Assembly (NCBI GenBank): GCA_964016885.1
Contig: OZ024746.1
Span: 64,108,001 to 64,172,000, forward strand
Reading direction: 5' to 3'
Length of the DNA stretch: 64,000 nucleotides
Source: Eledone cirrhosa
Taxonomy: Eukaryota
The notes below the pieces were generated by a model, which searched no databases, was not told the origin of the DNA, and saw only the letters and a program-made list of their open reading frames with translations. The translations under genes and the position numbers were made by a program. Within the stretch, counting starts at the first letter, position 1; each line of letters starts with the position of its first letter. Shown one piece after another: positions 8,556 through 62,996 of this stretch.

Positions 8556-8885
8556 TGTTTAGGCTTATATGTATACCCCTAGAACATCTAGCAGCATTCA
8601 GAGGCTGCCTATTCACACTATAACAATGTTTTTACAGGCAGCCTCTGGGTCAAATTTTCATTTTTCATTTTCCTATTCTCTTTGCGCTATCTTCCATGAT
8701 AAGTTTGGGTTCAAAGTAACCCTTTTATGCAATTCTGTCGAGGTTACCTGATGAGATTGTCCTGTCTTGCATCATAAATAGATGATGGAGCTAGGGCATT
8801 GAAATATGTATAGTGATTTCACAGAATTAAAATTTTAAAGCATATCGTCCAGTCCTGCCTTCTGTTGTCATTTTATATATATATA

Positions 8886-34103: not shown

Positions 34104-34156
<53 letters not shown>

Positions 34157-34272
34157 CAGAAGGAATATTCAATTTGTTGGTAATTCAACAAATATAAATG
34201 TTTATAACTGATTCAGAGCACTCGACAAGTTTTCTGGAGTATAAATGGAAGCTATATTTATAAAACCATATT

Positions 34273-34334
34273 TATTCTATTATATATATTTCAAGGGTAC
34301 CAAAAACTTTGGTACGCTTTCATCAGATAAAATA
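34273..34334 (-). ncRNA. Minimal type I hammerhead ribozyme
   Basis: Minus strand: tattttat CTGATGA aagcgtaccaaa gtt tttggtaccctt GAAA t atat ATA| atagaata; stems I and II pair, palindromic loop III. Confidence 0.72.
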
Positions 34335-34426
34335 CAAAGTGTGTTTTATAAATTTTGACATAGCCAAGGAACATATCTTAACGGTTGAAGTTTTCCTAGG
34401 ATTTTAGTAACATGTTTCAACAATCC

Positions 34427-34481
34427 TTATGCTCCGATGATTCCAGACTTTTCTCTGGAAGAAACAATTGTCAGCAAATAA
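34427..34481 (+). ncRNA. Minimal type I hammerhead ribozyme, CCGATGA core
   Basis: tgct CCGATGA ttccaga cttttc tctggaa GAAAC aatt GTC| agca; 7-bp perfect stem II. Confidence 0.65.
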
Positions 34482-34552
34482 ATGTTCTAAACTAAAATTT
34501 GATCGTTTTAACACTTTGTATATATATATATATATACACACATACACATATT

Positions 34553-34595
<43 letters not shown>

Positions 34596-34598
34596 TTG

Positions 34599-34630
<32 letters not shown>

Positions 34631-34634
34631 TATT

Positions 34635-34693
<59 letters not shown>

Positions 34694-34696
<3 letters not shown>

Positions 34697-35441
34697 TATC
34701 TTTATCCCATTACAGAAACTAATTAGTTGGAGTGAAAATTTTAGTAAGTAAGTTCATTTTTAATTCTTTAAAATTTTCTTATTTTACGTCTTTCATATAA
34801 TTGTTCTGCATCCCCCTGCATAGAACCACCTAGGTACTATGACATAACTTATGTATTTGCTAGCCTCAGTGTACATCTGTACGCATATGTTGGTAAATAT
34901 ACTAATTCTCTATATTTATCTCCAAATTATTTATTTGTTGAGCAAACTTGCCAAATCCACTACTAATTCATTGTAGTGGTAGTAGGCTCTTGTCATAATA
35001 CCATCCCACTCCTACTGACTAGCCTCAGTGTCACGTGATTGATTCTTTAGAATCTGCCACTTGACCAGAGACAGTGAACTTTTTCAGTGCTATGGAATTT
35101 AGTCCCCGCTAGCTGTTCCATCCACCGAATTATTATTTTTATATGAGTCCCTAGTGTCCGCGCATTGCCTGGGGACTTAGCTGAGAATAGACTCCCTGAT
35201 GACGTAATGAATTCTCGATGGTTACATTGCGTAACTATCTTTATCCCATTACAGAAACTAATTAGTTGGAGTGAAAATTTTAGTAAGTTAATTTTTAATT
35301 TTTTTAAAATTTTCTTATTTTACATCTTTCATATAATTGTTCTGCATCCCCCTGCATAGAACCACCTAGGTACTATGACATAACTTATGTATTTGCTAGC
35401 ATTAGTGTACATCTGTACGCATATGTTGGTAAATATACTAA

Positions 35442-35445
<4 letters not shown>
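34694..35445 (+). mobile_element. Non-coding 539-bp unit, ~1.4 tandem copies, flanked by microsatellite (retrozyme-like or non-autonomous PLE)
   Basis: aactatctttatcccattacagaaac...ctaattctct repeats at 34694 and 35233; contains an HHR. Confidence 0.75.
35191..35272 (+). ncRNA. Type I hammerhead ribozyme with extended stem II
   Basis: actcc CTGATGA cgtaatg...gatggttac attgc gtaactatc...cattaca GAAAC taatta GTT| ggagt. Confidence 0.75.
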
Positions 35446-35480
<35 letters not shown>

Positions 35481-36782: not shown

Positions 36783-37172
36783 TTATGTTGGTTCGATTCT
36801 CGGAGGTTTGAATCTTATGAATTTAGTGGCTATTCTATGTCTGCAGAAGATAGATCTTTCTAACTTATTATTAAGTAGCCTTTTAACATTTCTAAGGATA
36901 TACAATAGCTCAAGATCACACAGCCCGCAATAGGACATCCCTGTACTATAGGTTTTAGCAGCCGACAACTTCGACCAGTTGATAGTGTAGCTAGCGTTGC
37001 CGTCCTTCAATTCCCATATTTTTCTGGCGAGGGTGGTGGAACCCATAAGTGCTCGGTTTTTCATTGAGTGCCTGTGCACATACCATCTTTTCTTAAAAGA
37101 ACCCGCGGTGGATCCTATGTAATTCCAGGTGGAGTTACCCGAGATGACAGTGCACATGTACACCAGGCTCGA
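36783..37172 (-). pseudogene. GIY-YIG endonuclease C-terminal fragment of a PLE
   Basis: SSLVYMCTV...[21 protein letters not shown]; N-terminus replaced by (TA)n. Confidence 0.85.
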
Positions 37173-62007: not shown

Positions 62008-62996
62008 TTATCTGGTCGAGATCAGAGATGAGAGAGCAGTGAGGTCCTGGGTACTGAGTTTTAGGGCACGTTGGATTCCATTGTCAATTAGTGATGCAGG
62101 GTAGTCCCTGTCTATGAGTGTGTCCTTTAGTTCTTGTAGCCGTAAGTAACAGGTGTTTTTATTGGAGACTATAGTACAGATTCTCTTGGCTAAGTTGTAG
62201 GGAATATTAATTTTAACGTGTCTAGGGTGGCAAGAGTTGAAAGGAAGATATTGCTTGGAGTCTGTGGGCTTGTAGTATATGTCTGTTTCTATTTTTTTGT
62301 TATGAATCTTAATGAGGATGTCGAGGAAGGGAAGTTGTTGATGGCTGTATTCCACCGTAAAGTTAATATTCGTGTTGAGCCCATTTATAAGGGTGTGAAA
62401 TTCTTTAAGTTTCTCGATGTTTTCGTGCCAAAGGATGAAGCAGTCATCTAGATATCGCTTCCAGTTCTTTTCTATGTGTAAGTGGGGAGTGTTTCCAAAT
62501 TTGTTTAGTACTTTAGTGTAGAGGGTGATTTCCAGGTATCCCATGACTAGGTTGGCATAAGTGGGGACTGTTTTCGTTCCCATAGCGGTCCCAGATTTCT
62601 GCCTGTAGGGTTTGTTATTGAAAACGAAGTAATTGTTCTTCAAGATAAATTTGAGTCCTTCTATCACGAATTCTTTTTTGATGCGTTGTGGGAGTTCATT
62701 GTGGTAATTATCCAGCCAGAATTGGATAGCTTCTGTCGATAGGTTCTGTCGGTTTTTAATCTATTTAATTCTTCCCATTCTTTCTTGTTGAGGTTTGGCT
62801 TGTGTTTTTGTCTGTGCAAGTGTTGGTAAGGAAAGTTTGTGATGTGTTCACAGAATTCGTCCAGGATTTTATTTCTACCTTTTGATGGGGTGTAGTTGCT
62901 TCTATTTCTGGCTAATGATTCATCCTCATTGTACTGGTCGAATAGTTCTTCACTGAGTCGTAACTTTCTACAGAAGTCTGTGATGTATTCCTTCAT
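62008..62996 (-). pseudogene. PLE reverse transcriptase with internal deletion at ~62745
   Basis: NNYFVFN...YRQKSGTAMGT...YANLVMG, WKRYLDD, LPFLD, YYKPTD, SCHP motifs; RT N-terminal motifs missing at the junction. Confidence 0.93.

What the first reader, a model, noticed from the sequence alone, without database searches (positions are those of the whole stretch)
34155..34517. Hammerheads on both strands of one ~360-bp non-coding segment
Seen: between two (TA)n tracts lie a minus-strand HHR (34273-34334, AUA site) and a plus-strand HHR (34427-34481, GUC site), different in sequence and about 90 bp apart, with no visible junction between them. Established: ribozymes in both polarities are a hallmark of viroid-like RNAs with symmetric rolling-circle replication. 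Inference: either an ambisense-ribozyme retro-unit or an inverted fusion of two PLE termini; the latter is the more conservative reading.
Basis: partly seen in the sequence, partly recalled or inferred. Interest (0 to 1): 0.75.

Follow-up and report, generated by a model that had tools for sequence, protein, structure and literature searches.

The report
Two Penelope families fused head-to-head
This is a one-off join between the ends of two different jumping-gene families, each carrying its own predicted self-cutting RNA motif, so the motifs lie on opposite strands likely as a by-product of insertion and not because the stretch is a viroid-like replicon; the same back-to-back layout with matching motifs on both arms occurs about 9,500 times in this genome.

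Summary
Both hammerhead motifs are real, but the segment is not one unit. 34155-34402 is the inverted 3' end of one Hydra-clade Penelope-like family (A). 34396-34518 is the 3' end of another (B; proteins 42-48% identical). They meet at a 7-nt overlap with 6 of 7 letters shared, so there is a junction, and it is unique in the 3-Gb genome. Opposite-strand hammerheads are ordinary here: 9,486 A-like and 106 B-like back-to-back pairs. They are also in print for Penelope elements (PMC4209133), and this scan noted such two-armed insertions before on other DNA. What is unusual is that the arms come from two families; I found 13 such fusions, each with its own junction. The A arm ends at its family's commonest 5' stop, so its cDNA end was likely annealed to B sequence during insertion. 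Whether B was already in the (TA)n tract (slightly favoured) or was copied in the same event is open. Viroid-like or ambisense-retrozyme membership fails: no second copy, no tandem unit, and the palindromic stems III cannot pair with each other. Cleavage and expression are untested. Low interest.

The parts
34107..34154 (.). (TA)24 tract, left target/flank
   Evidence: TRF
34155..34402 (-). Family A arm: 5'-truncated 3' terminus (pLTR plus tail, the 'long' end) of a Hydra-clade Penelope-like element, pointing left; about 20 nt shorter in the tail than most copies
   Evidence: 39 other places scored match query 1-248 at 84-95%; parent ORF pieces in L061, L062, L105; tail compared
34273..34334 (-). 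Type I minimal hammerhead motif of family A (CUGAUGA, palindromic stem III UAUAUA, AUA site; predicted cut 34281|34280); cleavage untested
   Evidence: descriptor; covariation over 12 A-like copies
34396..34402 (.). A/B junction: 7-nt overlap, 6 of 7 letters shared by both families, carrying B's letter at the discordant place; it lies in the last 9 nt before A's commonest 5' stop
   Evidence: unique in the genome
34396..34518 (+). Family B arm: 5'-truncated 3' terminus (untailed 'short' end) of a second Hydra-clade family, pointing right
   Evidence: 39 other places at 95-97%; parent ORF pieces in L099, L101, L103
34430..34476 (+). Type I minimal hammerhead motif of family B (CCGAUGA = U4C core, palindromic stem III CAAUUG, GUC site; predicted cut 34472|34473); cleavage untested
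   Evidence: descriptor; CCGATGA in 42 of 49 B-type matches in the fetched loci, (some loci overlap, so matches are not all distinct copies)
34519..34692 (.). Mixed (TA)n/(CA)n tract, right flank
   Evidence: TRF; sequence

Best explanation
The segment is a single-copy, head-to-head chimera of the 3' ends of two different Hydra-clade Penelope-like retrotransposon families in a (TA)n tract, and it likely formed when the cDNA of family A, having run to its usual 5' stop, annealed through a 6-of-7-nt microhomology to family B sequence that was probably already inserted there. Shown: two families, the junction, its uniqueness, the orientation, the Hydra-type parents, and the frequency of back-to-back pairs. 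Inferred: target-primed reverse transcription from the left TA end; joining at insertion time (about 0.7); B pre-existing, with loss of the DNA between (about 0.5 overall, against about 0.35 for both arms made in one event and about 0.15 for a later deletion). Each strand carries one minimal hammerhead that would need a second copy of its own palindrome to fold actively, so the chimera is predicted to be an inert relic, not a replicon.
For: Only the window's own place covers all 364 nt among the 53 listed matches; the others end at query position 251 or before. All 29 other B loci fetched begin matching at query 242-244, and where printed they run upstream into B, not A, sequence. The junction 25-mer has 1 match at up to 1 mismatch. 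The 3' regions of A and B show no blastn similarity. [quoted passage not shown] Of 48 A-like arms, 17 end within -8..+3 of one terminus, and the window's arm ends there too (sample biased towards copies resembling the query). Only 5 of 4,258 positions in B match that end at 6 of 7 or better, and the junction is one of them. Other cross-family fusions also show 4-5-nt overlaps at or near a family terminus (L157, L196, L239, L247). For two-step formation: cross-family fusions have one tailed plus one untailed end in 9 of 13. That differs from same-family pairs (36 of 39; binomial p=0.014; Fisher p=0.056) but not from TA-separated neighbours (15 of 27; p=0.41-0.50). Precedent for a microhomology-annealed PLE 5' junction in an older element: PMC3846280 (passages). 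The A x B stem III duplex is -0.3 kcal/mol against -5.2 and -7.8 for the self-duplexes. One RAD-seq read of sample S9 (study P7, not the study of X1-X3) covers 34351-34455 across the junction at >=98%.
Against: The window's own ends are one tailed plus one untailed, exactly as a single insertion event predicts. It has no fold-back stub of either family. The arms' divergences (3 of 243 and 4 of 123 substitutions) do not separate their ages. No empty or B-only allele was available. n=13 is small, the end classes of the E and B2 arms were read by eye, and in three fusions (L152, L154, L156) 10-39 nt at the junction stay unassigned. The bridging read is a single read, which the tool also flags as running on unlike the stretch. 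No listed contig bridges the junction.
Confidence: 0.85

Rival explanations
1. Same chimera, made in one event. The two DNA ends of one cut (TA)n site were primed on two different RNAs (A from the tailed start, B from the untailed start), and the two cDNA 3' ends annealed: twin priming in trans, or an RT jump between family RNAs.
For: The window has one tailed and one untailed end, the footprint of 36 of 39 A pairs and 8 of 9 B pairs. The A arm ends at its modal stop. A PLE protein cleaves and extends both strands, starts at two RNA sites and is predicted to dimerise (PMC11167929). L1 cDNA ends are joined by microcomplementarity, and two synchronous L1 insertions can join (bioRxiv 10.1101/2024.08.27.596794, passages).
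Against: 4 of 13 cross-family fusions break the tailed+untailed rule. Random pairing of A-like and B-like arms would give about 2,000 mixed pairs (crude estimate). Only 3 direct A/B fusions were seen, so arms almost always share one source.
Confidence: 0.35
2. Two ordinary neighbouring insertions in one TA tract, later fused by a microhomology-mediated deletion unrelated to reverse transcription.
For: Cross-family neighbours separated by TA are common (27 clean cases among 41 loci; 22 of 30). L153, L164 and L217 join one family to a truncated inverted pair of another. Microhomology deletions in Penelope copies are reported (PMC3846280 passages).
Against: A repair deletion has no reason to end in the last 9 nt of A's modal terminus, and the same holds for several other fusions.
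Confidence: 0.15
3. An ambisense-ribozyme retro-unit or viroid-like RNA with symmetric rolling-circle replication, copied into DNA.
For: Hammerhead motifs on both strands within 364 nt. The plus strand folds better than shuffles (z -3.15, 0 of 100).
Against: One copy only. No tandem or permuted repeat of the unit. Each half belongs to its own ORF-bearing family. One hammerhead per strand cannot release a monomer. The two stems III do not pair, and single minimal PLE hammerheads showed no cleavage in vitro (PMC4209133). The centroid structure is much weaker (-54.7 against -77.1 kcal/mol), and the pairing lies mostly within arm A.
Confidence: 0.02
4. An assembly chimera between two repeat copies.
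For: No listed contig of runs X1-X5 bridges the junction (the tool says holes prove nothing).
Against: One raw read from sample S9 of another study spans it. Twelve more independent fusions of the same build exist. The junction sits at a biologically preferred terminus with microhomology.
Confidence: 0.03

Closest known systems
Hydra clade of Penelope-like elements (Craig et al. 2021, PMC8557442; includes Hydra-1_Obim)
   Same: RW[K/R], DKT, CxCx5C linker, C-terminal GIY-YIG without CCHH, canonical hammerhead in the pLTR, (TA)n targeting, inverted 5'-truncated copy, tail at one end only
   Different: Here the inverted arm comes from a different family than the direct arm, and both arms are short non-coding termini. 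Tails are about 90 nt (A) and 140 nt (B) rather than 30-40 nt. A and B are not Hydra-1_Obim itself (its hammerhead and protein differ, compared by eye).
Minimal type I hammerheads of metazoan PLEs (Cervera and de la Pena 2014, PMC4209133)
   Same: Palindromic stem III predicted to work as a dimer; the paper already reports dual motifs about 100-700 bp apart on opposite strands
   Different: The parts read do not say whether the two motifs came from different families; B carries a fixed U4C core
Penelope insertions with inverted pLTRs and microhomology-annealed 5' junctions in Adineta vaga (PMC3846280); L1 twin priming
   Same: Head-to-head inversion, 5' junction by microhomology, secondary insertion into another element
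   Different: Cross-family fusion cannot come from self-priming (fold-back) on one RNA, the model proposed there
Viroids and viroid-like RNAs with hammerheads in both polarities; metazoan non-LTR retrozymes
   Same: Small size, non-coding, hammerhead motifs (on both strands, as in viroid-like RNAs)
   Different: No unit repeated or amplified, no tandem array, halves of separate origin; resemblance only

Membership tests
Hydra-clade PLE (parents of arms A and B) | Single RT + C-terminal GIY-YIG EN ORF | tested here: met
   RT (YRDD), then EN, then the hammerhead terminus in order in L061/L062/L105 (A) and L099/L101/L103 (B), in frameshifted pieces; Pfam gave no significant family
Hydra-clade PLE (parents of arms A and B) | RWK-type motif and DKT instead of DKG | tested here: met
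   RWR in L105 and L099; DKT in L062 and L099
Hydra-clade PLE (parents of arms A and B) | CxCX5C linker; CCHH motif absent from EN | tested here: met
   CxCx5C in L061, L098, L101; no CxxC in these EN pieces
Hydra-clade PLE (parents of arms A and B) | Hammerhead in the pLTR; insertion in (TA)n | tested here: met
Hydra-clade PLE (parents of arms A and B) | Placement inside the Hydra clade in an RT tree | not tested
   No reference sequences were held as files; motif comparison with the paper's supplement by eye only
Canonical PLE inverted insertion | Inverted 5'-truncated copy of the same element, tail at one end | tested here: not met
   The inversion and the single tail are present, but the inverted arm is another family; it is built like one
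Type I minimal hammerhead ribozyme | Core, stems I-II, palindromic stem III, NUH site, covariation | tested here: met
   12 A-like copies: 92.7% of cells paired, 9 pairs with two-sided change, slid controls 36-59% (related sequences, so not a probability). B: U4C core, a natural variant with lower in vitro activity (PMC3088659 passage); B covariation not tested
Type I minimal hammerhead ribozyme | Self-cleavage | not testable with these tools
   needs an in vitro assay
Viroid-like RNA / ambisense retrozyme | Both ribozymes belong to one conserved, propagated unit | tested here: not met
   junction unique; separate families
Viroid-like RNA / ambisense retrozyme | Multimeric or tandem units that release a monomer | tested here: not met
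   no tandem array over 34155-34518; one motif per strand
Viroid-like RNA / ambisense retrozyme | Circular RNA of both polarities | not testable with these tools
   no suitable RNA data were at hand

The most novel reading that the evidence does not exclude
The cross-family fusions (13 found, 9 with one tailed and one untailed end) include true one-step events in which the two ends of a cut (TA)n site were extended on RNAs of two different Penelope families and the cDNAs annealed. That would show that the long-puzzling inverted PLE structure comes from two independent priming events joined end to end, not from fold-back self-priming, and that Hydra RNPs can occasionally act in trans across families about 45% identical.
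Probability: 0.35. Interest if true: 0.5.

Novelty: new variant of a known kind. Interest (0 to 1): 0.24.

Why it matters
As a ribozyme finding it is ordinary, and it is a caution: scans that flag 'hammerheads in both polarities' as viroid-like will hit about 9,500 Penelope inversions in this genome alone. Its modest value is as a natural marker. Arms from two families cannot come from self-priming on one RNA, so a genome-wide catalogue of such junctions (end type, arm age, microhomology) can test how Penelope elements make their inverted 5' ends, a step the cited papers call unresolved.

Tried and rejected
Rfam found no hammerhead. Pfam found no significant family in 5 ORF pieces. Expression: no RNA holder listed. 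Contigs of X1-X5 did not bridge the junction, which proves nothing. One search, meant to enrich cross-family pairs, gave mostly same-family pairs: 25 of 30 fetched; 49 of 79 were not fetched from that call. One search was the reverse complement and added nothing. Arm divergence could not order A and B. The tailed+untailed rule did not establish one-step formation. Rows left out of counts: L112 (TA between arms) from the 40 same-family pairs; 7 loci with extra cores from the TA-separated set; L153, L164, L217 (joined to a truncated inverted pair), L229 (same family) and L218 (= L209) from the fusions. Literature searches for cross-family inverted PLE fusions listed no such report, but only the open library was searched. 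The supplements of PMC4209133 and of the preprints were not read and may hold examples.

Full report
Observation. Both motifs are in the sequence. A type I descriptor matches the minus strand at 34273-34334 (stem I 8 bp, CUGAUGA, stem III palindrome UAUAUA, AUA) and the plus strand at 34430-34476 (stem I 4 bp, CCGAUGA, stem II 7 bp, palindrome CAAUUG, GUC). In 20,000 shuffles both strands were hit together 0 times. Rfam misses both. Twelve A-like copies keep the structure with compensatory changes in stems II and III (92.7% of cells paired, slid controls 36-59%). TA tracts flank the segment.

Two families, one junction. The window lies at G000:C6:64108001-64172000 of a 3.0-Gb genome. The 364-nt query has 4,460 candidates, of which 40 were scored. 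Of the 53 listed matches only the window's own covers the whole query; the rest stop at position 251 or earlier. The right part has 1,669 candidates, of which 40 were scored. The 29 other loci fetched start matching at query 242-244 and, where printed, continue upstream in their own sequence. The families overlap by 7 nt at 34396-34402, with 6 letters shared and B's letter at the discordant place. The junction 25-mer occurs once at up to 1 mismatch. The 3' regions of A and B have no blastn similarity. One raw read from sample S9 of another study spans the junction (single read, flagged by the tool as running on unlike the stretch).

What the families are. Longer copies carry frameshifted RT and C-terminal GIY-YIG-type ORF pieces (A: L061, L062, L105; B: L099, L101, L103), about 42-48% identical between families. 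They show RWR, DKT, YRDD and CxCx5C, and no CxxC in the EN. These are the defining marks of the (TA)n-targeting Hydra clade (PMC8557442: passages, sections 11 and 15, supplement passages). No tree was built.

Opposite-strand hammerheads are routine. Exact patterns with a 40-400-nt gap give 9,486 back-to-back A-like pairs, 106 B-like pairs and 6 A/B pairs, of which 2 lack TA between the arms. The A-like pattern spans several subfamilies. In the first 40 places listed, 39 were direct pairs whose arms looked like one subfamily in the printed part (output cut at L131-L132), and 36 of the 39 had one tailed and one untailed outer end. B pairs showed the same in 8 of 9. This is the known PLE footprint (PMC8557442; PMC3846280 passages). 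It fits the two RT start sites and both-strand extension shown in vitro for a Poseidon element (PMC11167929, parts 1-2 of 4). Cervera and de la Pena already reported dual minimal hammerheads 100-700 bp apart on opposite strands, and no cleavage by a single motif (PMC4209133, parts 1-2 of 4). Earlier notes of this scan describe the same two-armed footprint elsewhere in this genome; neither look-up listed a cross-family case.

Cross-family fusions. Targeted patterns (30 of 32 fetched; 30 of 79; 41 of 41) gave 13 distinct direct head-to-head fusions of different families, the window included. Each has its own junction. Several show 4-7-nt overlaps at or near a family's usual 5' stop; three keep 10-39 unassigned nt. 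Their ends are tailed+untailed in 9, both untailed in 3 and both tailed in 1. TA-separated neighbours, which are independent insertions, show 15 of 27. The fusions differ from same-family pairs (binomial p=0.014; Fisher p=0.056) but not from independent neighbours (p=0.41-0.50). So at least some arose in two steps.

Mechanism. Shown: structure, families, uniqueness. Inferred: A was reverse-transcribed from the left TA end, starting at its tailed site, and ran to its commonest 5' stop (17 of 48 A-like arms end within -8..+3 of it, in a biased sample). There its cDNA end annealed to one of only 5 positions in 4,258 nt of B that match at 6 of 7. B was either an older insertion in the same tract, with the DNA between lost (about 0.5), or a second cDNA made from the other DNA end (about 0.35). 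A later repair deletion gets about 0.15. The arm divergences (3 of 243, 4 of 123) do not decide. A transcript of either strand holds one minimal hammerhead, and the two stems III do not pair (-0.3 against -5.2 and -7.8 kcal/mol). The chimera is therefore predicted to be inert.

Comparison and verdict. The arms are Hydra-clade PLE termini by every motif tested. The segment is built like a canonical inverted PLE insertion but fails its same-element feature. It fails the viroid-like and retrozyme tests of a propagated unit and of tandem monomers (retrozyme definition from bioRxiv 10.64898/2026.07.22.740005, part 1 of 5). The plus strand does fold better than shuffles (z -3.15), mostly within arm A. 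U4C is a known natural core variant (PMC3088659 passages). L1 twin priming was read in passages (bioRxiv 10.1101/2024.08.27.596794); viroid papers were seen as search listings only. Searches listed no report of cross-family inverted PLE fusions; unread supplements may hold some. A small variant of a known structure, with some use as a mechanistic marker: interest 0.24.

Noticed in passing
window 34693-35450: Another TA-flanked repeat right beside the finding: about 541-nt unit with a 215-nt direct duplication (95%), and a hammerhead-like motif at 35196-35239 (+) whose GAAA reads GTAA; relatives at 74-84% in L012, L096, L226.
   Followed up: partly
window 36948-37169 (-) and 62116-62454 (-): Fragments of other Hydra-type EN (38% to A) and RT (29% to A).
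   Followed up: no
window 8740-8820 (+): A third descriptor hit with the A-like GAAA-UAUGUA-UA ending and a long stem II region.
   Followed up: no
L154, L158, L165, L174 and others: A third family (E) with a hammerhead whose stem II region is about 70 nt long, core CCGAUGA or variants, stem III CAAUUG.
   Followed up: partly
B-type copies in L032-L104: The core is CCGAUGA (U4C) in 42 of 49 matches, so the variant is fixed in the family rather than a decay of this copy.
   Followed up: partly
L002-L030, L112-L151: Family A copies have a sharp modal 5' stop about 80 nt upstream of the hammerhead core, possibly the transcription start.
   Followed up: partly
L154, L180, L187, L209, L224, L228, L239, L247: 8 of the 13 cross-family fusions keep a short fold-back stub of one family at the junction, as if one arm of an inverted pair was replaced or the RT jumped templates.
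   Followed up: partly
L099 2740-7268 and L105 2330-5549: Near-complete, frameshifted Hydra copies with a tailed inverted arm at the 5' end; useful as family references.
   Followed up: partly
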